DNA of 64,000 nucleotides from an uncultured virus (IMG/VR IMGVR_UViG_3300042363_000251) (lineage: Duplodnaviria > Heunggongvirae > Uroviricota > Caudoviricetes). Below the pieces are notes generated by a model. It had not been told where the DNA came from and did no database searches. It saw only the letters and a list, made by a program, of their open reading frames with translations. Where the stretch lies: IMG/VR virus record IMGVR_UViG_3300042363_000251. One strand, given 5' to 3'. Of the stretch, positions 25,665 to 33,598 are shown piece by piece (positions within the stretch are counted from its first letter, which is position 1; each line of letters starts with the position of its first letter). The position numbers and the translations under genes were made by a program.

Positions 25665-28600
25665 TTATCTCAAACTAGTTGGTGCTGCACCGTCTAATGA
25701 TGATGATAACTCACCTGTATTCAAGATACGAACTGGGATGTAGATAAATTCAGCAGCTTTCACTGGCTCAATCGCTACATCTACGTAAAGTTCGTTTCTA
25801 TCTATTCTAGCAGGTGTGTTGTTTGAATCGTCACACACTACTAAGTAGTCGTACAACCCTCGTTTAGCCACTAAATCAACTAATAGAGTTTGTACTACAC
25901 CTGTTATTTGCTGTCTAGTTAACGCATCATTAGGCTCAAATACAAACGGTCTAGCAGCTATTGTTAACTGACGACGGATATATGCTACTAATCTTGCTAC
26001 GTTAATTCTGTCAAGTGCGCTTTGTGAATTAAAGCTTGACTTGTTGCCATAGTTTAACAATCCGTTTCCAGTAAAGAATACTAGAGGGTTGATAAAGTTT
26101 GTATACAACACATCTCTAATTCCAACTCTAGTTCGTGTAGATTGGAATTCACCTGTTTGTGCATCTAAGTAACCAATGCTTAATGCATTATCAATAACAC
26201 CTCTTCTAGTACCTGCAGGAGCAAACCAAGGATAAGCGATAGAGTCATTACGTAAAATAGTTCTTAACATCATATGTGATGCTGGAACTACTACTTCATT
26301 TCCTGCTAAATCATTAGTCAAACCACTTGGATAAAATAGACCCATGTAAGTACTTCTAGTTACTAACCCGTCATCGCCTGTAGAAGTTGCGCCAGCAGCA
26401 TTAGTTGCCCATGCTTGAATTGCTGTAGCTGTTTCTGGCAATCTCATTGGAGTATCACCAATGATAAACCCAGTTTCTCCTCTATCTGCGTTTAGTACAA
26501 TCATGTTTGCTTGAAGTTCTGGATAGTTCGGAGTAGCAATCAAGTTAAAGAAGTTGTCTTCATCTCTAATAGCAGTATTAGTGTCAATAGATGCTCTTAA
26601 CGCCTGAACTACCATTGCTCTTTGAGCTTTACGACCCATGTACGGAGCACCATTAGATTGTAATCCAGACACAGATACCCAAGCATCTTTTTCTGTTGGT
26701 AACGCAACATCTGGGAAACTAGTAGAGTTAAAGTAATTAGTTATAAACTCTTTAACGTTATAGCCTGATCGTCTAGTGTTGAATAACAACATACCTGTTG
26801 GATATAAGCTATCATCAGGAGCATCTAAATCTAAGTAGTTGCTTGTTAACAAGCTAACAATTGTTGGAACTGCATCTGTTGCTGGATTTGTTGTTGCGTT
26901 GGTCGCCCAACGTGCATCAGCAAAGACAACACCTGTTGGATTTGTTTGATCAGTGTTATCAATTCTTACCCACTGATCAGTACCGCTAACACTTTGCCAA
27001 CGATTGATAATAGGATAATTTTCTAAATCACTTATATCAATCCAAAGATCACCGTATGCTAATGCAGTACCATCGGATTGAAGAGTTGGTGCGCTTGCGC
27101 TTACAATAGGACCGTTAGGATCAGTAGCGTTCACACCGCTTGGTAGTGGAAAACCTGAACTGCTAAAGTTGATGTTTCTGTATCCTCTCCAGCCTGCTGA
27201 AGTATTTACCATAATGTCTACTTGATCTACAACGCTATAGAACCAATTAGTTCCTGTAACCGGAGCTTCAGTTAATGCAGTTGCGCTTGCTGTAGGATCA
27301 GCTTCGATCCAGTCAGATAGTAATGAAGTATAAACAACATTAGGAGTTCCTGATACAAAAGTTATGCCTTCTAACGCGCCTGCACCACTTACTTGTGTTA
27401 CTTCAACTACTAAATTGTTAGCTGGAGCAGTACCACCTAAATTTGCTCCAGAAACGGTAAGTTGATCTCCTACTACATAACCTGTACCTGCGTTAGAAAA
27501 AGTGGTTGAATTTACTGCATATGTAGAAGCAAGAGAAACTGATAGTACTGCGGATGAGCCAGCACCACCGGTAACAACAGGTGTGTATGTAGGTGTTAGA
27601 ATAGCACCCTGTTTAACATAGTCGGTTGTACCTGCGATAAATCCAGCTTCGGTTAAAAATCCGTTATTATCAGTAATTTGTATCACACCACCGGCAGTAT
27701 GAGTAATTACTAATGCACCTGCAGAATTTAGTTCTATACTAGTATAAGGTATTGCAGCATTAGTCCAATCAACGATAAAGTCGGCGGCGGTGGCGTTGTC
27801 AGCTACAATTACTGTATAAGCACTAGACAGTGGGGCAATTCCCGGTTGCGATACTTGTACAGAAAGAGTATAGGGGCCGCTAGGAAACGTTGGATTTTCT
27901 ACAGTTCCCGTTACTACAGTTGCCCCTGCATTTGCTTTTTTCCAATAATAAATAGGACTATCTGATGGATACAAATTGTTGAAGTTATATTGCGCATAAA
28001 GAGTGTTTGCATCAATATTTAAACCTCCTTCTGCATCTAAGGATGCTATGGCTGCGTTATCAGATACCGCAAGGGTTACTGTTTTAGCATTCCAAGCAGC
28101 TAAATCACTAGACCATTCTTCTATCACAGGAGTTAATCCGTTACCGACAGATCCTACTTTGATCCAAATAGAACCAGTAGGTCTAGAAACGGTTTGACCA
28201 GTTTGCCATAGAGGTTGTTGTGAGGAAGTAGCGTATGTAATTACAGGTTGAAAGTAATTCCCAGCAGTAATACCTAAGTCAGTTAATACAGTGCCTGTTC
28301 CTGCTACAATAGTAATAAATTTAGGTGCTATATCATCAAGATTTTGAGAAGAATATATATTTAATTTTCCACCGATTACAGAAGCACTTACACCGCCCCA
28401 ACCTAAGTTATTAATTGCAGCAGCTACGCCTGATACTGTGTTGTTAGTAGCTGCTGGAACTGTAATAGTAGCACTTACTTGAGTAGTACCGGATAATCTG
28501 ATTATAAAAGTATTTGCTGCGGTAAGTGACGTAGGTGCGTTAGAACCTTGGATAGCAGGAACATTTTGTAACCAAGCATTACTACCAATACTAACCCAAG

Positions 28601-29234
28601 TATTTGTAGTTGCTTTGTAGAAAAACTGTTTACCAGTAGCACTAGTAGGAGTACTATAAGTTGGTATAGCGATTACCGCGTAATCACCGATATTACCTAC
28701 AGTATTAACAGGTGAACCAGCTGATACTTGCGTACTATCAGTTATTACGATTGGAGTTTGTAACGTAAACTGACCAGTAGTTTGGTTGAATACATAAATA
28801 CCCCAAGTTGTTTCAGAAGTATTTAACCATAGAGTTCCATCTGATGGTTCACCTGAAGGTCTTCCAGTTTGACCAACTAATGCAGCCAAGTCAATGTCTG
28901 CTCTCATGCAATATACTGTATTAGTAGCACCTAAAGCAGAGTATGCGGCTAATAATCCATATTCGTTTAATTCATACCCTTGAATAGGTGTACCATTAGT
29001 AGACGTATAAAAGAATGGATTACCGTATAAGTTAACAAGATCACGCTGACTTGTTACTCTAAACAATTTGTTTGCGTTAGCAGCAGTTGTTCCTGATGCT
29101 ATCCCTGTACCGCTAGGGTTAACTTTATTTTGTGCAGTTGCTAATAGCACAAATGGTATTGAATTTGTTGGCGCTGGTAAGTACTGAGATTCATCAGTAA
29201 TACTAACTTGTACGCCGGGTGATGTTAATGCCAT
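25665..29234 (-). CDS. gp18: Contractile tail sheath protein (T4 gp18-like), extended
   Basis: MALTSPGVQVSITDES, PWFAPAGTRRG, RDVLYTNFINP, LDRINVARL, FVFEPND, VCDDSNNTP, IEPVKAAEFIYIP. Confidence 0.95.
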   Translation of the reverse strand: MALTSPGVQVSITDESQYLPAPTNSIPFVLLATAQNKVNPSGTGIASGTTAANANKLFRVTSQRDLVNLYGNPFFYTSTNGTPIQGYELNEYGLLAAYSALGATNTVYCMRADIDLAALVGQTGRPSGEPSDGTLWLNTSETTWGIYVFNQTTGQFTLQTPIVITDSTQVSAGSPVNTVGNIGDYAVIAIPTYSTPTSATGKQFFYKATTNTWVSIGSNAWLQNVPAIQGSNAPTSLTAANTFIIRLSGTTQVSATITVPAATNNTVSGVAAAINNLGWGGVSASVIGGKLNIYSSQNLDDIAPKFITIVAGTGTVLTDLGITAGNYFQPVITYATSSQQPLWQTGQTVSRPTGSIWIKVGSVGNGLTPVIEEWSSDLAAWNAKTVTLAVSDNAAIASLDAEGGLNIDANTLYAQYNFNNLYPSDSPIYYWKKANAGATVVTGTVENPTFPSGPYTLSVQVSQPGIAPLSSAYTVIVADNATAADFIVDWTNAAIPYTSIELNSAGALVITHTAGGVIQITDNNGFLTEAGFIAGTTDYVKQGAILTPTYTPVVTGGAGSSAVLSVSLASTYAVNSTTFSNAGTGYVVGDQLTVSGANLGGTAPANNLVVEVTQVSGAGALEGITFVSGTPNVVYTSLLSDWIEADPTASATALTEAPVTGTNWFYSVVDQVDIMVNTSAGWRGYRNINFSSSGFPLPSGVNATDPNGPIVSASAPTLQSDGTALAYGDLWIDISDLENYPIINRWQSVSGTDQWVRIDNTDQTNPTGVVFADARWATNATTNPATDAVPTIVSLLTSNYLDLDAPDDSLYPTGMLLFNTRRSGYNVKEFITNYFNSTSFPDVALPTEKDAWVSVSGLQSNGAPYMGRKAQRAMVVQALRASIDTNTAIRDEDNFFNLIATPNYPELQANMIVLNADRGETGFIIGDTPMRLPETATAIQAWATNAAGATSTGDDGLVTRSTYMGLFYPSGLTNDLAGNEVVVPASHMMLRTILRNDSIAYPWFAPAGTRRGVIDNALSIGYLDAQTGEFQSTRTRVGIRDVLYTNFINPLVFFTGNGLLNYGNKSSFNSQSALDRINVARLVAYIRRQLTIAARPFVFEPNDALTRQQITGVVQTLLVDLVAKRGLYDYLVVCDDSNNTPARIDRNELYVDVAIEPVKAAEFIYIPVRILNTGELSSSLDGAAPTSLR

Positions 29235-29366: not shown

Positions 29367-29717
29367 ATGAATATAAGACCTATATGTCCAAAATGTAATA
29401 CATGTGTTTGTGCTATCAATTATAAGAAAAATAATGTGTATCATTATAGAAGCACATGTAATAGCTGCGGTAGGAAAAAGCCCAGAAAAAAACCCAGAAC
29501 TTTTCTTTGGCAAAAAAGCGGTTATAAGAAAAAAACAATGTGTGACTTATGTGGATTTAGAAGTGTATACGCTACTCAAATAGTAGTGTACCATATCAAC
29601 GGGGATTTAACTGATATTAAGTTAAACAATCTACGCAGTATATGTTTATGCTGCGTAGAAGTTGTCAAAAGAAAAGAAGTGACTTGGAAGAGGGGAGATT
29701 TACAAGTTGACTATTAA
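29367..29717 (+). CDS. Zn-ribbon plus degenerate HNH-like protein
   Basis: Several CxxC pairs; VYHINGD...NL..ICLCC resembles an HNH core; TAAATA 5 nt upstream of the ATG. Confidence 0.6.
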   Translation: MNIRPICPKCNTCVCAINYKKNNVYHYRSTCNSCGRKKPRKKPRTFLWQKSGYKKKTMCDLCGFRSVYATQIVVYHINGDLTDIKLNNLRSICLCCVEVVKRKEVTWKRGDLQVDY

Positions 29718-30317
29718 GTTTAATGATGCAAACAAATCTTCTTTAGTGCCGTTATTAGCTAGGTAACAATCATACTCTAATCCTACAGAACTGTATTCGC
29801 TAGCATGAACGCCTCGAGGCGGTAAGCAACCTTCAGTACCTTGATTGAATCTAACAGCATCATCATACCAGTTCGGAAGTTCACCGCGTTCAATACGAAT
29901 CAATTTTCCATTTAGTTTTTTTACTACACTTAGTTCGTTAGCAAATCTAGCATCAGTTATTACGATATTACCTTCGCATTTAAGAATTTTGTTTTCTAAC
30001 GATGCTACCCAAATATCTTTATGAAAACCATGTCTACAAACTTCAGTACCCCAGTATTGTAATATCCATCTAGGAGTAAGATGGGGCATGTTTAATCTAG
30101 CAGCCCACCATGGATCAATTTGTTCTCTCCATTGTCTACTCTCTAAAGTTTCACCTTCAAGTAAAACACGATCCCACCCAAATACTACTGCGATAGCATC
30201 TTTTAACGATCCTGCAAAGCTTAGTTTAGTAAAATTATGATTGTTGATTAAGTATTCTGCTGCTGTATCTTTACCCGAGCCTATGAAACCCGAGATAGAT
30301 ATAATTTTGTTGGGCAT
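29700..30317 (-). CDS. Deoxynucleoside monophosphate kinase (T4 gp1-like)
   Basis: ISGFIGSGKDT, SFAGSLKD, TPRWILQYWGTE, ITDARFANE, HASE. Confidence 0.9.
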   Translation of the reverse strand: MPNKIISISGFIGSGKDTAAEYLINNHNFTKLSFAGSLKDAIAVVFGWDRVLLEGETLESRQWREQIDPWWAARLNMPHLTPRWILQYWGTEVCRHGFHKDIWVASLENKILKCEGNIVITDARFANELSVVKKLNGKLIRIERGELPNWYDDAVRFNQGTEGCLPPRGVHASEYSSVGLEYDCYLANNGTKEDLFASLNLIVNL

Positions 30318-30382: not shown

Positions 30383-31159
30383 TTAGCCTTGCACCCATGT
30401 CAGAGGTTGTGAATTATCAACATATCGTTTGAGTTCATCAATCAATTTCTCTATCATAGCATAGCCTTCACTTTTCATTGCTGCGCCGTTAAGTGATGTA
30501 CCACCACTGGGTCCAGCAATAGTAGCAAACTTTTCTCTGGCTTCACCAATGATAGTTTTTAAAACCGCAAGTGTATAATCTTGAATCCAAGTACCAGTAG
30601 AAGGGTCTTGTAACAATGTAGCTTCAGGTCGCAGGATATCCGCCCAAATAAGGATCTTTTCACCTGAACCCTTAAAATCACGAACTATTCTAAGTGTCTT
30701 AGATACAGGATCAAATGTATAAGTCAAGTAACCACCAAACATTCTAGCAGCTAACTCAACATAACCAGCATAAAAATCGTAAGTAGCCAAGCCACCGGCA
30801 GAGTTATAATTAAGCAAGTAAGTATTTAATATCGCACTTGAAAATGGATCAAATGAGCTGGCGCCGGGGCCAGTTTCTAATCCAACTGTTCTACGGTATA
30901 AGCATCTTACATTAATAAATTCACTGGGAAGTGTATAAGTATCTACATTTTTTTCTATAGTAAAAAGTGTGTAAGTTTCCTGTGTGGAATTCTGCGCACG
31001 TTGTCTATATGTAGATATAGCATAATTATATGCTACTTCCAAGTGCTCAGGATCAACTTCAAGATCAATTATATTTTGACCTAATCTTAATAAACATGAA
31101 TTAAATAATTGCTCTTTTAATTGAGTAAGATTAAGATTAGTTGGAATTGTTTGGATCAT
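30383..31159 (-). CDS. gp13: Neck protein (T4 gp13-like)
   Basis: LLRLGQNIIDLEVD, WIQDYTLA..K...GEAREKF...GPSGGTSLNG. Confidence 0.85.
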   Translation of the reverse strand: MIQTIPTNLNLTQLKEQLFNSCLLRLGQNIIDLEVDPEHLEVAYNYAISTYRQRAQNSTQETYTLFTIEKNVDTYTLPSEFINVRCLYRRTVGLETGPGASSFDPFSSAILNTYLLNYNSAGGLATYDFYAGYVELAARMFGGYLTYTFDPVSKTLRIVRDFKGSGEKILIWADILRPEATLLQDPSTGTWIQDYTLAVLKTIIGEAREKFATIAGPSGGTSLNGAAMKSEGYAMIEKLIDELKRYVDNSQPLTWVQG

Positions 31160-31230
31160 TTTTCATGGTTCCTTTATGTTATAACTATTTATCTGGTTAC
31201 ATTTAGTTTACATGAAATAATTATTCTAAG

Positions 31231-31637
31231 GGCATGGCGAGTAGATATAAAATCTACAAGCCACGGGTTATTCTTGAGGTACTTAGGCAACGATGAATTC
31301 AAACATTACAGTGGAGGATTGTCTATGTCTCACTAACCCATAAAGGGAGTTTGCCGTATTCGCTGTTAACGTTCAAACGCTATTCACCGAGGAGTTTGAA
31401 CCAGCCCAAGAGTATCTATCGCAATTACCATCTCTTGGCAACAACAACCATTTAGACACAAGAAACGTTTCTAACAAGGGTTAGACGTTTATGGCATCCC
31501 TATTCGGGGTAGTCTTGTGAATGGAGTCACTGATTTTACTCAGTTCAAGCTTAGACTCGCTTCTATACCCACACAACACGGATTGAGGTGGGACTTGGAT
31601 GTTATTGTGGCTAACACTTACCTTGCTTGATAAACAA
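31231..31637 (-). ncRNA. Candidate large structured non-coding RNA (~400 nt), family not recognised
   Basis: Largest non-coding gap in the window; about 43% GC by hand count over 31261-31620; at least eight helices, several with G-U pairs only on the minus strand. Confidence 0.65.
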
Positions 31638-31856
31638 TTATTCTATAAGTTTAAATATCAAAAACAAATCTTTAAGGGGATGATTCCATGGATCTTTTAC
31701 ACCATATGCTGTACAGCCAAATCTAGTATCATCGTCTAAGTGATCTTTTCCTTTGGTATAGTTTTCCATGTCAATACAAGTAAGTACTGTACCTTCAGGA
31801 ATCTTTGCTAATTCTTCTGGTGTAAAAAGATAAAGATCATCCTCCCATTTTTGCAT
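31638..31856 (-). CDS. Hypothetical protein
   Basis: 72-aa ORF with TAATG coupling to the MazG-like gene. Confidence 0.65.
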   Translation of the reverse strand: MQKWEDDLYLFTPEELAKIPEGTVLTCIDMENYTKGKDHLDDDTRFGCTAYGVKDPWNHPLKDLFLIFKLIE

Positions 31857-32284
31857 TATAAATCATTCTCTTTTCTATTTTCAGAATAGAATGGATCAAA
31901 CGTGCCGCCAGGATATCTTGCTTCAAGCTTTTTAACGTTTTCAGCAATCACATCGTTTGGATCTAAACCTAATGCTCTGCAAGCATTGATCCAATACCAA
32001 ATAATATCGCCTAGTTCACGTTTCATGTGGTAAACGTTTTCATCACTCAATTCTTTACCTTGAAAAATGATTTTTTTGTTTACCTCGATAAACTCTCCGC
32101 TTTCTGCTGCTAAACCCAAACATGCAGTAATCAGCAACGGAACATTTACTGCAGGCCCAGTTACATCTTCTTTATTTTGCGAATTTAGCTCTTCACACCT
32201 TTGCTGAAAAATGTGAAAATGATTGCTTGGGTTACTAGTTACAACCTCTACAAAATCTTTGTACTTGTTTAAATCAATATTCAT
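31856..32284 (-). CDS. mazG: MazG-like NTP pyrophosphohydrolase
   Basis: LGLAAESGEFIE..KK, ELGDIIWY, NVKKLEARYP. Confidence 0.85.
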   Translation of the reverse strand: MNIDLNKYKDFVEVVTSNPSNHFHIFQQRCEELNSQNKEDVTGPAVNVPLLITACLGLAAESGEFIEVNKKIIFQGKELSDENVYHMKRELGDIIWYWINACRALGLDPNDVIAENVKKLEARYPGGTFDPFYSENRKENDL

Positions 32285-32293
32285 GTGTTCTCC

Positions 32294-33478
32294 TCAAAAT
32301 GCTTTTAGTATGATCATAGCATCGTTAAATCTGCCATTTGGTGTAGTAGCAACAGCTTTGATATCTTTAAAAAACTTTCTGGCTGCTGGCTTACTACCCG
32401 TAATTTGTTTTAACTGTTCTTCTGGCTTCCGCAATATCTTTGCTTCACTTTCTTTAGTGTCAAAGCCTAAAAGTGTATTTCCCTTGACAATTAAACATTT
32501 GCTCATTTCATCAGCAACAAAGTGGTAAAGTTTGCGCTTAGCAGTATCGTATACCCAACATTCACTTGAGTTATGGAGCTTAGTAGGATCAATACTAACC
32601 AAATTCAGTTTTGTTTTTTCATCAATAAACTTACGCAAATATTTCAGTTTAGAAACTTGCTTTTCTACAGAAACAGGTTTTTTAGCTCGTTTTACTTTAT
32701 TAGTTTGTTTTAGCGCAACATACGAGTTAACCGCACTAGTAATAATGTCAATGTATTTGATTATATTTTTAATCTGCATTTTTGAAAGGTGTGAATAACC
32801 TTCTACTAATTGTTCATCAGTACCTTGCTGAACTTCAATAAGTTCGTCTTTAATGGGAGTAAATGGTTGAGTTACAATAGAAGTGTGTTGCGGCAAAATA
32901 CTTTTTTCAGACAAATAATTAATTACTTTTGTAGTAGGGTCAATACCTGTTTTACACCCATCACTAATGTATTCGTCTAGCATTCCTTGAAGTTCACCTG
33001 AAACATCACTTGCTCTTTCACGCATTATAATTTGAATGTTTCTTTTGTTAGTTTCTTCTACTACAACCGCAGCAGCTATAGTTTCTTCAGTTTCAGGATT
33101 TTCATCATCCATATGAACAAGCCTAGCTACTTCTTTAGCTAATCGCTTTTTTTCTTCTTCTGTTAGCTCAAATCCGCGTAAAGACATTCTAGCTAACCAG
33201 CCAAATGTGGGTGCCACTTTGTTATCGGGAGTTCGGAATACTTTTTTAGCAGTAGCAGTATCGCCAGTTGAATTAAGATAATCACATATAAACTGTTTTG
33301 CTTCTTTATTGGAGCAAAAGTAGTTATACCAGTTAAACGCACTACCCATAAAAGACAGTCGTTTTTGTTCAGTAGAGTAGTCAACTGATTTAGGTTCGTT
33401 TCCGTGCCCTTTAAGCCCAAACAAGTCTTTTGGGCGAAGATCACGAACTTCAGCAGTGTTTTTTTGTCTAATAGCCAT
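32294..33478 (-). CDS. Conserved-type hypothetical T4-like phage protein (start revised to 33478, MAIRQK)
   Basis: Long ORF; TAAATA motif at about 33502-33507 upstream of the ATG at 33478; C-terminal WVYDTAKRKL...VKGNTLLGFD...LRKPEEQL...NGRFN. Confidence 0.65.
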   Translation of the reverse strand: MAIRQKNTAEVRDLRPKDLFGLKGHGNEPKSVDYSTEQKRLSFMGSAFNWYNYFCSNKEAKQFICDYLNSTGDTATAKKVFRTPDNKVAPTFGWLARMSLRGFELTEEEKKRLAKEVARLVHMDDENPETEETIAAAVVVEETNKRNIQIIMRERASDVSGELQGMLDEYISDGCKTGIDPTTKVINYLSEKSILPQHTSIVTQPFTPIKDELIEVQQGTDEQLVEGYSHLSKMQIKNIIKYIDIITSAVNSYVALKQTNKVKRAKKPVSVEKQVSKLKYLRKFIDEKTKLNLVSIDPTKLHNSSECWVYDTAKRKLYHFVADEMSKCLIVKGNTLLGFDTKESEAKILRKPEEQLKQITGSKPAARKFFKDIKAVATTPNGRFNDAMIILKAF

Positions 33479-33598
33479 ACAATATGTTCTCTTTGTTGGG
33501 GTATTTATATCATGAATACATATGATAACAAATCTTTGAGCATTAGTCAATACCCGAAGATAAATATAATGATACGATAAAGTGTAAGGAGATCCAAA

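What the first reader, a model, noticed from the sequence alone, without database searches (positions are those of the whole stretch)
31231..31637. Unrecognised ~400-nt highly structured RNA candidate with possible pseudoknots between mazG and the neck gene
Seen: this is the largest non-coding gap in an otherwise tightly packed genome. It is about 43% GC by hand count, visibly richer than other spacers, and almost fully tiled by complementary segments. Pairings in + coordinates: CCCAC 31568-72/GTGGG 31588-92; GAGTC 31524-28/GACTC 31554-58 enclosing ACTGA/TCAGT; CACAAGA 31457-63/TCTTGTG 31513-19 closing a junction with a bulged AAACGT-TCTAAC/GTTAGA-CGTTT arm; long-range 31439-50/31596-607; CCAAGAG 31406-12/CTCTTGG 31432-38; GCTG+GTTCAAAC 31362-78/GTTTGAAC+CAGC 31394-405; GGCAA 31286-90/TTGCC 31351-55; terminal hairpin 31233-46/31252-65. 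Two loop-derived pairings could be pseudoknots on the minus strand: CGGUGAAU (31382-89) with AUUCAUCG (31291-98), and AUGGUA (31426-31) with UGCCAU (31491-96). Most imperfect positions become G-U pairs on the minus strand, the same sense as the flanking genes; one possible closing helix favours the plus strand. I see no tRNA, tmRNA, RNase P or group I/II intron hallmarks. Inference: a phage-encoded large ncRNA (ribozyme, scaffold, decoy or virion-assembly RNA), possibly undescribed.
Basis: partly seen in the sequence, partly recalled or inferred. Interest (0 to 1): 0.85.

Follow-up and report, generated by a model that had tools for sequence, protein, structure and literature searches.

The report
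New large structured phage RNA family
The roughly 420-base gap between two genes of a giant phage encodes a conserved, intricately folded RNA with several pseudoknots that matches no described RNA family, and its job is still unknown.

Summary
Window 31220-31637 (minus strand, same sense as the flanking genes) has no open frame and no Rfam match. It belongs to a family of about 100 distinct sequences from public viral and metagenome contigs. On an unfitted MAFFT alignment of 66 members, 77 proposed base pairs are 96.3% paired. Sixty of them show compensatory changes on both sides, no shuffle of 500 reaches this, and slid controls pair at 35-46%. An out-of-sample set gives 96.9%. G·U pairs outnumber A·C 216 to 57, which sets the strand.

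The fold has at least 14 helices, two three-way junctions and three to four pseudoknots.

The RNA is accessory: 17 of 80 close neck-gene loci carry it. It usually lies between mazG and the neck gene's late promoter. It also occurs in an unrelated 35-kb phage and twice in a 277-kb phage. No protein partner is co-conserved.

Best reading: an autonomous, trans-acting phage RNA aimed at a host process. The function is unproven.

The parts
31220..31637 (-). Whole structured RNA element (about 418 nt). The ends are inferred from where family conservation starts and stops, not from mapped transcript ends.
   Evidence: Family alignments; nhmmer; no ORF.
31625..31630 (-). 5' tail (UCAAGC). It pairs with GCUUGA at 31545-31550 inside the P3 domain (pseudoknot T1, window-specific register).
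   Evidence: Six Watson-Crick pairs read directly from the sequence. At family level, 5'-tail/P3-loop pairing is 94.3% paired with 4 of 5 pairs double-sided (helix 1). The aligned register itself does not pair in the window row.
31599..31622 (-). 5' H-type pseudoknot. P1a is GGU 31620-31622 with GCC 31609-31611. P1b is GUGUUA 31612-31617 with UAACAU 31599-31604.
   Evidence: P1a is 93.9% paired with 2 of 4 pairs double-sided. A P1b hairpin of at least 4 bp forms in 57 of 66 sequences, with 48 distinct sequences.
31568..31592 (-). P2 hairpin (CCCAC 31588-31592 / GUGGG 31568-31572).
   Evidence: 99.4% paired, 3 of 5 pairs double-sided (helix 3).
31524..31558 (-). P3 domain, enlarged in the window's subgroup. 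GAGUC 31554-31558 pairs with GACUC 31524-31528, enclosing ACUGA 31540-31544 / UCAGU 31529-31533.
   Evidence: RNAfold of the segment. The family P3 stem is 92.8% paired with 3 of 3 pairs double-sided (helix 4). A hairpin of at least 3 bp forms in 66 of 66 sequences.
31457..31519 (-). P4 three-way junction. P4 is 31513-31519 / 31457-31463. P4a is CCC 31506-31508 / GGG 31498-31500. P4b is AACG 31486-31489 / CGUU 31464-31467 plus CUAA 31481-31484 / UUAG 31471-31474.
   Evidence: P4 is 99.1% paired with 7 of 7 pairs double-sided. The P4b base is 98.5% paired and the inner part 96.4% (helixes 5-8). P4a comes from the fold; a stem of at least 3 bp forms in only 28 of 66 sequences.
31406..31438 (-). 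P5 hairpin (31432-31438 / 31406-31412) with a conserved 19-nt loop (31413-31431).
   Evidence: 99.8% paired, 6 of 7 pairs double-sided (helix 9). Loop conservation is shown.
31362..31405 (-). P6 hairpin. The outer stem is GCUG 31402-31405 / CAGC 31362-31365 and the inner stem is 31395-31400 / 31372-31377. The loop holds the 5' strand of the main pseudoknot.
   Evidence: The outer stem is 100% paired. The inner stem is 92.1% paired with 5 of 5 pairs double-sided (helixes 11-13).
31382..31389 (-). Main pseudoknot PK: P6-loop strand CGGUGAAU pairs with AUUCAUCG at 31291-31298.
   Evidence: 98.3% paired with 6 of 8 pairs double-sided. 97.3% paired with 7 of 8 double-sided on out-of-sample sequences, even though the covariance model does not include this helix. 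L333, L345 and L101 carry entirely different complementary sequences here.
31287..31298 (-). 3' strand that zips two hairpin loops: 31291-31298 pairs with the P6 loop (PK), and 31287-31290 (UUGC) pairs with GCGA 31419-31422 in the P5 loop.
   Evidence: The P5-loop helix is 96.6% paired but mostly invariant, with 1 of 4 pairs double-sided (helix 10). On A4 it is 93.5% paired with 2 of 4 double-sided. Tentative.
31300..31353 (-). Second three-way junction. Px is CAAAC 31349-31353 / GUUUG 31300-31304. P8 is CCC 31345-31347 / GGG 31337-31339. P9 is UAGUG 31331-31335 / CACUG 31309-31313, with a 17-nt near-invariant loop at 31314-31330 that ends in a CCUCC motif.
   Evidence: Px is 90.9% paired with 5 of 5 pairs double-sided. 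P8 is 97.4% paired (3 of 3). P9 is 95.8% paired (4 of 5) (helixes 15-17). Loop variants are seen.
31270..31279 (-). Motif 1 (CCUCAAGAAU), a direct-repeat partner of motif 2.
   Evidence: It co-varies position by position with motif 2.
31236..31262 (-). P10 terminal hairpin. The 3' arm (AUAUCUACUCGCC, 31236-31248) is nearly invariant, while the 5' arm varies in register.
   Evidence: A hairpin of at least 4 bp forms in 66 of 66 sequences, with mean MFE -12.2 against -2.7 for shuffles. The outer 3 bp are 91.4% paired (helix 18). The 13-mer occurs once in the window.
31222..31231 (-). Motif 2 (CCUUAGAAU-like), marking the 3' end of the conserved element.
31186..31193 (-). GATAAATA motif resembling a T4 late promoter (the T4 comparison is recalled). 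It lies between the RNA and the neck start codon and is not part of the RNA.
   Evidence: 16 copies in the window against 6.2 expected, reached by 1 of 100 shuffles. Loci that lack the RNA also have it in front of the neck gene.
30383..31159 (-). Neck / head-tail adaptor Ad2 gene (downstream neighbour).
   Evidence: phrog_211, E = 1.9e-25.
31638..32284 (-). Upstream neighbours: orf72 (31638-31856) and a MazG-like pyrophosphatase (31856-32284).
   Evidence: PF03819, E = 2.5e-09; phrog_229, E = 3.7e-42.

Best explanation
Window 31220-31637 (minus strand) is the gene for an autonomous structured non-coding RNA of about 390-420 nt. It belongs to a new family carried by phages.

Shown:
- The RNA folds into at least 14 helices arranged in three blocks.
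- The 5' block has a tail-to-loop pseudoknot, an H-type pseudoknot, hairpins P2 and P3, and a three-way junction (P4/P4a/P4b).
- The central block has hairpins P5 and P6 and a second three-way junction (Px/P8/P9). A single downstream strand pairs with the P6 loop and, tentatively, with the P5 loop, tying the block together.
- The 3' block is a hairpin (P10) flanked by two direct-repeat motifs that co-vary.
- The element is dispensable and patchy among close relatives.
- It is the main thing shared between otherwise unrelated phages.
- No protein gene travels with it.

Inferred:
- It is made as part of, or by read-through from, the upstream mazG-side transcripts. It lies upstream of the neck gene's late promoter, so it is not the neck mRNA leader.
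- The compact fold displays near-invariant single-stranded loops and junctions: the 19-nt P5 loop, and the 17-nt P9 loop ending in a CCUCC motif that looks like an anti-Shine-Dalgarno sequence.
- Through these it binds, or acts catalytically on, a host macromolecule. It would then be an accessory factor for host takeover or counter-defence.

I put about 0.95 on 'real, selected RNA structure on this strand' and about 0.55 on the trans-acting, host-directed reading. Whether it binds or catalyses is open.
For: - Family size: 17 of 80 neck-gene loci. 75 of 83 viral loci found with an invariant 17-mer. 80 of 94 found with a second pattern. 54 of 58 metagenome loci. About 99 distinct sequences in all (66 + 32 + 1).
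- Covariation on the unfitted MAFFT alignment A2 (66 sequences): 77 pairs, 96.3% paired, 60 pairs and 707 cells with double-sided change, 0 of 500 shuffles reaching any of the five measures, slid controls 34.5-45.6% paired.
- Out-of-sample set A4 (46 distinct rows): 96.9% paired. The pseudoknot, which is not modelled in R1, has 7 of 8 pairs double-sided.
- Strand: 216 G·U cells against 57 A·C cells.
- Optional hairpins swap GNRA and UUCG loops on covarying stems.
- Not coding.
- Autonomy: intrinsic-terminator-like hairpins lie directly upstream in L007, L012, L015 and L333. The late-promoter motif lies downstream of the RNA, and loci lacking the RNA have it too.
- Other contexts: a 35-kb phage that is 99% complete, a 24-kb record, and two divergent copies in a 277-kb phage.
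- Between the 35-kb phage and the window's 267-kb genome, the best nucleotide match is the RNA core itself (74% over 148 nt). The only clear shared protein is ferritin/Dps-like.
- The immediate neighbours are not homologous across the context groups.
- No reverse transcriptase in 5 of 5 records.
Against: - There is no transcript evidence.
- No promoter for the RNA was identified. The RNA starts within 0-10 nt of the upstream stop codon or terminator.
- Single-sequence folding energy is unremarkable (z = -1.8).
- The host target is pure inference.
- The CCUCC-containing loop was partly selected for by my own search patterns, so its invariance is overstated in those sets. It was invariant in the 14 loci found through the neck protein alone.
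- In 31 of 54 metagenome loci, and in most viral loci, the RNA sits at one fixed place between mazG and neck. That would also fit a local cis role.
- Homing or HNH endonuclease genes lie nearby in some contexts. That would fit a selfish element.
Confidence: 0.55

Rival explanations
1. A mobile ribozyme: a self-splicing or self-cleaving element, perhaps a derived or permuted relative of group I introns. It would spread between phage genomes, helped by homing endonucleases encoded nearby.
For: - Size, pseudoknotted core, GNRA-capped peripheral hairpins and many invariant unpaired nucleotides.
- A GACUA segment and a loop reading AGAUAUAGUC in L230, L247, L299, L239 and L333. By my recollection these look like group I core elements.
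- A 314-aa homing endonuclease lies directly upstream in G004, an HNH gene lies 1 kb upstream in G002, and there are weak homing-endonuclease hits near L094 and L330.
- Patchy presence at an insertion hot spot, and two copies in one genome.
Against: - No Rfam intron or ribozyme model matches even at E<=10.
- The order of the look-alike segments does not follow the group I order (my reading).
- The would-be P7 pairing has A·A in 54 of 66 sequences, and its G covaries within P4 instead.
- The element does not interrupt a gene. In relatives lacking it, mazG is followed directly by the promoter and the neck gene.
- The loop in question is closed by its own covarying stem, P9.
Confidence: 0.15
2. 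A cis-acting transcript element at the boundary between the early/middle (mazG) and late (neck) units. It could be a 3'-end stabiliser, an insulator or terminator, a processing site or an antitermination signal.
For: - It has the same orientation as both neighbours and a fixed position just upstream of the neck late promoter in most members.
- Terminator-like hairpins adjoin it.
- In relatives, the promoter region forms an inverted repeat around the neck ribosome-binding site. This suggests that read-through transcripts matter at this junction.
Against: - 58 of 75 assessable close relatives manage without it.
- It also occurs among unrelated small ORFs in other phages.
- About 400 nt with 3-4 pseudoknots and roughly 65 invariant positions is, by my recollection, far more than known elements of this kind need.
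Confidence: 0.15
3. An RNA-only multimeric assembly, like the cages or rings recently shown for ROOL and GOLLD. Here the fold would serve self-association rather than binding a target.
For: It shares a lifestyle with ROOL and GOLLD: large, ornate, phage-borne, no protein partner and unknown function. My basis for those RNAs is the abstract of PMC12286853, seen in the search listing. The two co-varying direct-repeat motifs flanking P10 could be intermolecular contacts.
Against: There is no sequence or model similarity to ROOL or GOLLD. I saw no self-complementary conserved loop in the alignment. Nothing here was tested directly.
Confidence: 0.1
4. A DNA-level element (promoter cluster, replication or packaging site, recombination site) rather than an RNA.
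For: - Sigma-70-like hexamers overlap the terminal hairpin and motif 2.
- The 3' arm of P10 is invariant while its partner arm varies.
- A 10-nt direct repeat brackets the element in the window (read).
Against: - Compensatory changes keep 96% pairing over 77 pairs.
- G·U pairs outnumber A·C pairs about four to one, which only matters for RNA of one strand.
- The promoter count in the region is below the shuffle mean (3 against 5.9).
- The motifs are not repeated elsewhere in the window.
Confidence: 0.03

Closest known systems
GOLLD and ROOL RNAs (large ornate RNAs often found in phages and prophages)
   Same: Large, highly structured, phage-borne, accessory, with no dedicated protein partner and no known function. 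Discovered only by comparative analysis.
   Different: No match to their Rfam models. Shorter (about 400 nt). By my recollection those RNAs sit near tRNA genes; this window has no tRNA genes. Multimer formation was not tested.
Group I self-splicing introns of phages
   Same: Similar size range, pseudoknotted core, GNRA-capped peripheral hairpins, short segments that look like conserved core elements, and occasional homing-endonuclease neighbours.
   Different: Not inside a gene. No Rfam hit. The look-alike segments are in the wrong order, and the would-be P7 helix is not supported by covariation.
HEARO / OMEGA guide RNAs of IscB, IsrB and TnpB
   Same: RNAs of a few hundred nucleotides with pseudoknots, linked to mobile DNA. 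An HNH gene lies nearby in one context.
   Different: No IscB- or TnpB-sized nuclease is adjacent; the neighbours are mazG, small ORFs and neck. No Rfam hit.
phi29 packaging RNA (pRNA)
   Same: A phage-encoded structured RNA encoded next to head-tail connector genes.
   Different: No Rfam hit (Phage_pRNA should be among the 4227 families searched). More than twice the size. Absent from most close relatives that keep the same neck gene. Also found away from neck genes.
HK022 put RNAs and other cis-acting antitermination or processing RNAs
   Same: Encoded between transcription units, in the sense orientation, next to promoters and terminators.
   Different: Far larger and more complex. Occurs in varied contexts. 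Its position relative to promoters is unknown.

Membership tests
Any Rfam 15 family (4227 models) | Score at or above the family's gathering threshold. | tested here: not met
   0 matches in the whole window. At E<=10 only one chance-level hit outside the element core (ceN110, 15.8 bits). Ten divergent members gave 6 hits, all with E>2.
Group I intron | Match to the group I covariance model, meaning the canonical P3-P9 core in the canonical order. | tested here: not met
   No Intron_gpI hit at E<=10. The look-alike segments are not in the group I order (my reading; the group I order itself is recalled).
Group I intron | A P7 helix forming the guanosine-binding site. | tested here: not met
   In the candidate GACUA/UAGNC pairing the middle pair is A·A in 54 of 66 sequences, A-U in 5 and A·G in 5. 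The G covaries with P4 instead.
Group I intron | Interrupts a host gene whose exons join to restore a reading frame or an RNA. | tested here: not met
   In relatives without the element, the mazG stop is followed by about 30-55 nt holding the promoter and ribosome-binding site and then the neck ATG. No exon is split.
Group I intron | Self-splicing activity with a guanosine cofactor. | not testable with these tools
   Needs in vitro transcription and a splicing assay.
GOLLD / ROOL | Homology to the GOLLD or ROOL consensus structure. | tested here: not met
   No Rfam hit.
GOLLD / ROOL | Forms homo-oligomeric RNA-only complexes. | not testable with these tools
   Needs native gels or cryo-EM. The property is known to me from the abstract of PMC12286853 in the listing.
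OMEGA/HEARO guide RNA | Encoded next to an IscB, IsrB or TnpB nuclease gene. | tested here: not met
   The neighbours are MazG, small ORFs, neck, a 152-aa HNH protein and a 314-aa homing endonuclease. No RuvC-type nuclease of that size is present.
Retron / DGR / group II intron RNA | A reverse transcriptase gene in the same element or genome. | tested here: not met
   PF00078 found in 0 of 5 RNA-carrying records, while the control genomes did give hits. Four of the five records are incomplete.
Structured functional RNA (generic) | Base pairs kept through compensatory substitutions beyond what shuffled and slid controls give. | tested here: met
   0 of 500 shuffles for all five measures, and for four of the five (1 of 500 for pair types). 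Slid controls are 34-48% paired against 96-97%.
Cis-regulatory leader of the neck gene | Lies between the gene's promoter and its start codon, and travels with the gene. | tested here: not met
   The GATAAATA motif lies downstream of the RNA. 58 of 75 assessable neck loci lack the RNA. The promoter assignment itself is inferred.

The most novel reading that the evidence does not exclude
This is a new class of large catalytic or self-assembling RNA, comparable in complexity to group I introns or RNase P RNA. Phages would carry it as a protein-independent accessory module and exchange it horizontally between unrelated lineages, from a 35-kb phage to jumbo phages of more than 260 kb. It would act directly on a host RNA or on the translation machinery through its invariant loops, one of which looks like the anti-Shine-Dalgarno end of 16S rRNA.
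Probability: 0.3. Interest if true: 0.95.

Novelty: categorically new. Interest (0 to 1): 0.82.

Why it matters
Few large natural RNAs have a complex tertiary fold. By my recollection, most that have been characterised turned out to be ribozymes, guide RNAs or unusual RNA-only assemblies.

This family offers:
- About 100 natural variants.
- Three to four pseudoknots supported by covariation, and two three-way junctions.
- A ready secondary-structure model for SHAPE, cryo-EM and activity assays.

It is also shared by unrelated phages with no protein partner. That points to an RNA-only way of manipulating a host, a class of phage function that is almost unexplored. Even if the function proves modest, the family should be added to RNA family databases, so that this roughly 400-nt gap in jumbo-phage genomes stops being annotated as empty.

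Tried and rejected
- **Structure-aware MAFFT.** Q-INS-i is not installed. I used plain MAFFT plus one covariance model instead.
The long-range helix, GGCAA/TTGCC and the second loop pseudoknot are no better than shuffles.
- **Group I-like P7** between GACUA and the P9 loop is rejected.
- **5' AGG with the 3' CCU of motif 2.** RNAalifold proposed this. My explicit test used a wrong register, so the pairing was never validly tested. The local P1a alternative has the compensatory changes.
- **5' tail with the P9 loop.** It looked good in the window by eye, but the tail varies while the loop does not, with no compensation (my reading).
- **Motifs 1 and 2 or the P10 arm as a repeated phage promoter.** Not enriched in the window: 5 matches against 6.7 expected, and 1 against 0.9.
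- **A protein partner.** The neighbours are not homologous across context groups. No reverse transcriptase was found. An RNA ligase lies near one copy only. The only clear protein shared between the 35-kb phage and the window's genome is ferritin/Dps-like.
- **Cultured relatives.** Model R1 finds nothing in Atu_ph07 or PA5oct. blastn with three queries finds nothing in 50,697 phage records.
- **Bacterial and archaeal genomes.** The 59 exact 17-mer hits are all chance and none carries the element. This scan needed an exact 17-mer, so divergent copies would be missed.
- **Chance pattern hits.** 8 of 83, 14 of 94 and 4 of 58 loci were chance hits and were dropped.
- **Coding potential.** Rejected.
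- **Earlier notes of this scan.** None found.
Full report
**Setting.** The window is part of a 266,967-bp viral record, labelled 'provirus' and 76% complete. Around the finding, every gene runs on the minus strand:
- An ORF of unknown function (32294-33550).
- A MazG-like pyrophosphatase (31856-32284).
- A 72-aa ORF (31638-31856).
- The gap.
- A neck/head-tail adaptor Ad2 gene (30383-31159).
- A dNMP kinase (29700-30317).
- An 1189-aa tail sheath (25665-29234).

The neck protein is 36-39% identical to those of jumbo phages such as Atu_ph07, PA5oct and Rak2-like phages.

**Relatives.**
- A search with the neck protein returned 80 viral loci (591 confirmed candidates, best 80 kept). blastn found the gap sequence in 17 of them at 71-100% identity.
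- In most of the others, mazG or another ORF ends 25-55 nt before the neck start. The element is therefore a variably present insert of about 430 nt. With the later covariance model, 16 of the 80 carry the core. L008 holds only the 3' part, 5 loci are too short upstream to judge, and 58 lack it.
- An exact 17-mer from the most conserved loop found 83 viral loci. Of these, 75 hold the whole element, giving 59 distinct sequences.
- A second, independent pattern found 94 loci. Of these, 80 hold the element and 19 are new, including variants of the 17-mer loop. The 14 misses are coding-region chance hits.
- A relaxed loop pattern in metagenome contigs found 58 loci. Of these, 54 hold the element and 32 are new distinct sequences.
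- The exact 17-mer in one genome for each of 185,579 prokaryote species gave 59 hits, about the number expected by chance. None carries the element.
- blastn with three family members found nothing in 50,697 GenBank phage records.

**Structure and covariation.** Compensatory changes are visible by eye in the first alignment. For P4, for example, CACAAGA/UCUUGUG in the window becomes AUGGGA/UCCCAU in others.

On a plain MAFFT alignment of 66 distinct full-length members (A2), which is not fitted to any structure, I tested two models:
- A 52-pair core model is 97.2% paired. 39 pairs change on both sides, and 0 of 500 shuffles reach any measure.
- An extended 77-pair model in 18 helix segments is 96.3% paired. 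60 pairs and 707 cells change on both sides, and 0 of 500 shuffles reach this. Sliding the 3' partners by 1-3 columns leaves 34.5-45.6% paired and 20-27 such pairs.

Helices whose register MAFFT does not hold were checked sequence by sequence:
- P1b forms at least 4 bp in 57 of 66 sequences, with 48 distinct versions.
- P10 forms at least 4 bp in 66 of 66.
- Two optional hairpins carry GUAA, GCAA, GAAA or UUCG loops on covarying stems.

I then built a covariance model of the P5-P6-Px/P8/P9 core (R1, 155 positions, 30 pairs). It was used to align 54 matches from metagenome loci plus the second copy from G005; most of these were not used to design the structure. On the 46 distinct rows, 42 pairs are 96.9% paired. 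The main pseudoknot, which R1 does not model, is 97.3% paired with 7 of 8 pairs changed on both sides. In L333, L345/L391 and L101 the two pseudoknot strands are replaced by entirely different but complementary sequences.

G·U cells outnumber A·C cells 216 to 57. Selection therefore acts on RNA of the window's minus strand.

**The fold (window coordinates are in 'parts').**
- *5' block.* The 5' tail pairs with the P3 loop (T1). A small H-type pseudoknot (P1a/P1b) follows, then P2, then P3 (enlarged in the window's subgroup), then a three-way junction (P4/P4a/P4b).
- *Optional hairpin.* 22 of 66 members have an extra GNRA-capped hairpin after P4.
- *Central block.* P5 has a conserved 19-nt loop. 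P6 holds the 5' strand of the main pseudoknot in its loop. A second three-way junction (Px/P8/P9) follows, and P9 carries a 17-nt near-invariant loop ending in CCUCC.
- *Zipper strand.* The strand after Px pairs first with the P6 loop (PK) and then, tentatively, with four bases of the P5 loop. One strand thus zips two hairpin loops together.
- *3' block.* Hairpin P10 has a nearly invariant 3' arm. It is flanked by two similar motifs that co-vary with each other position by position as direct repeats, not as complements. I cannot explain this. Two sites for one binding partner is one possibility.

Eight of the eleven pairings are confirmed. Three are not: the 12-bp long-range helix, GGCAA/TTGCC and the AUGGUA/UGCCAU loop contact. 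The long-range helix competes with P1b, and GGCAA/TTGCC competes with Px, both of which do covary.

**Context and transcription signals.** GATAAATA, which resembles the T4 late promoter by my recollection, occurs 16 times in the window against 6.2 expected. Copies lie in front of the sheath, neck and other structural genes. The copy at 31186-31193 lies between the RNA and the neck ATG, and loci lacking the RNA have it too. The RNA is therefore not the leader of the late neck mRNA.

The conserved RNA begins within 0-10 nt of the upstream stop codon. In L007, L012, L015 and L333 it begins right after a terminator-like hairpin with a T-run. I could not identify a promoter for it. A consensus scan found only sigma-70-like hexamers overlapping P10 and motif 2, and fewer promoter-like sites than in shuffles. 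How the RNA is made is inferred, not shown.

**Distribution beyond the mazG-neck site.** R1 found the core in five further records:
- G001 (153 kb) and G004: the RNA again lies between a MazG-like gene and the neck gene, with extra ORFs in between. In G004 a 314-aa homing endonuclease sits directly upstream.
- G005 (277 kb, direct terminal repeats): two divergent copies, about 53% identical to each other over the whole spacers. One lies one ORF upstream of a neck gene. The other sits among small ORFs, 2.4 kb from an RNA ligase.
- G002 (35 kb, 99% complete) and G003 (24 kb): these belong to a different kind of phage. There the RNA sits among small ORFs near an HNH endonuclease, a virion protein or the terminase.

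In the metagenome set, 31 of 54 loci have the mazG/orf72-RNA-neck arrangement, and about 20 have other neighbours.

Between G002 and the window's genome, the best nucleotide match is the RNA core itself. The only clear shared protein is ferritin/Dps-like. The immediate neighbours are not homologous across context groups. None of the five records has a reverse transcriptase. Atu_ph07 and PA5oct lack the RNA.

**What it most likely is.** The data show a selected, compact, multi-pseudoknotted RNA that is dispensable, patchy, horizontally shared and without a travelling protein gene. My best reading is an autonomous, trans-acting accessory RNA that uses its invariant loops and junctions to bind, or act on, a host component.

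The CCUCC-ending P9 loop invites the idea of an interaction with Shine-Dalgarno-like sequences or with factors that recognise the 16S rRNA 3' end. That is speculation. The loop's invariance is also partly a product of my search patterns.

Rivals are a mobile ribozyme related in kind to group I introns, a cis-acting element at the early/late transcript boundary, an RNA-only multimer like ROOL or GOLLD, and a DNA-level element. Only the last is clearly disfavoured.

**Comparison with what is known.** No Rfam family matches. Group I membership fails on model match, on the would-be P7 helix and on the absence of split exons. OMEGA/HEARO membership fails for lack of a nuclease gene, and retron-like systems for lack of a reverse transcriptase. 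ROOL and GOLLD are the closest in lifestyle but not in sequence or modelled structure.

Literature checks:
- The 17-mer occurs in no paper of the searchable library.
- Three keyword searches listed nothing on such an RNA.
- Passages of one 2026 preprint on prokaryotic intergenic clusters mention no phage. Its supplements were not seen and could list related clusters.

I saw only listings, abstracts or passages, and read no paper in full.

**Verdict.** This is a new, large, covariation-supported structured RNA family of phages. Its function is unknown, and expression and activity data are the missing pieces.

Noticed in passing
L006 3929-3970, and the same spacer in L019, L063, L071, L026 and L034: In relatives without the RNA, the neck gene's GATAAATA motif lies inside an inverted repeat. 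The 3' arm of the repeat contains the neck ribosome-binding site. Read-through transcripts could hide the site, while transcripts starting at the late promoter could not. This would be a T4-style temporal switch (inferred).
   Followed up: no
Spacer between mazG and neck in L011, L021, L040, L055 and L017/L018 and in G004 (L331 6363-7307): This spacer is an insertion hot spot. Different relatives carry unrelated ORFs here: 290 aa, 321 aa, 199 aa, 195 aa, a 191-aa GT29 sialyltransferase-like protein and a 314-aa homing endonuclease.
   Followed up: partly
window 31219-31228 and 31636-31645 (plus strand): A 10-nt direct repeat brackets the RNA element exactly. The upstream copy is the end of orf72. 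Only 7 nt are shared in L004 and L005, and other members have none. It may be chance or a recombination scar.
   Followed up: partly
window 31270-31279 and 31222-31231 (minus strand); columns 463-472 and 547-556 of alignment A2: Two similar motifs flanking the terminal hairpin change together across the family as direct repeats, not as complements. Unexplained.
   Followed up: partly
G005:C1:30465-30622 and 251233-251388 (L332, L333): One 277-kb phage record carries two divergent copies of the RNA. The spacers are about 53% identical, and the pseudoknot sequences differ but stay complementary in each copy.
   Followed up: partly
G000:C1:58513-58926 (outside the window); L330 3963-4397; L393 5872-6303: A ferritin/Dps-like protein (PF00210) is the only clear protein shared between the window's jumbo phage and the small phages that carry the RNA.
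   Followed up: partly
window 25665-29234 (minus strand): The tail sheath protein is unusually long (1189 aa). The sheath domains match only its C-terminal half, and there is a weak flagellin-IN-like hit in the N-terminal part.
   Followed up: no
window 31223-31251 (minus strand): Sigma-70-like -35 and -10 hexamers with a 17-nt spacer overlap the loop of the terminal hairpin and motif 2. This could be a promoter reading towards the neck gene or a coincidence.
   Followed up: no
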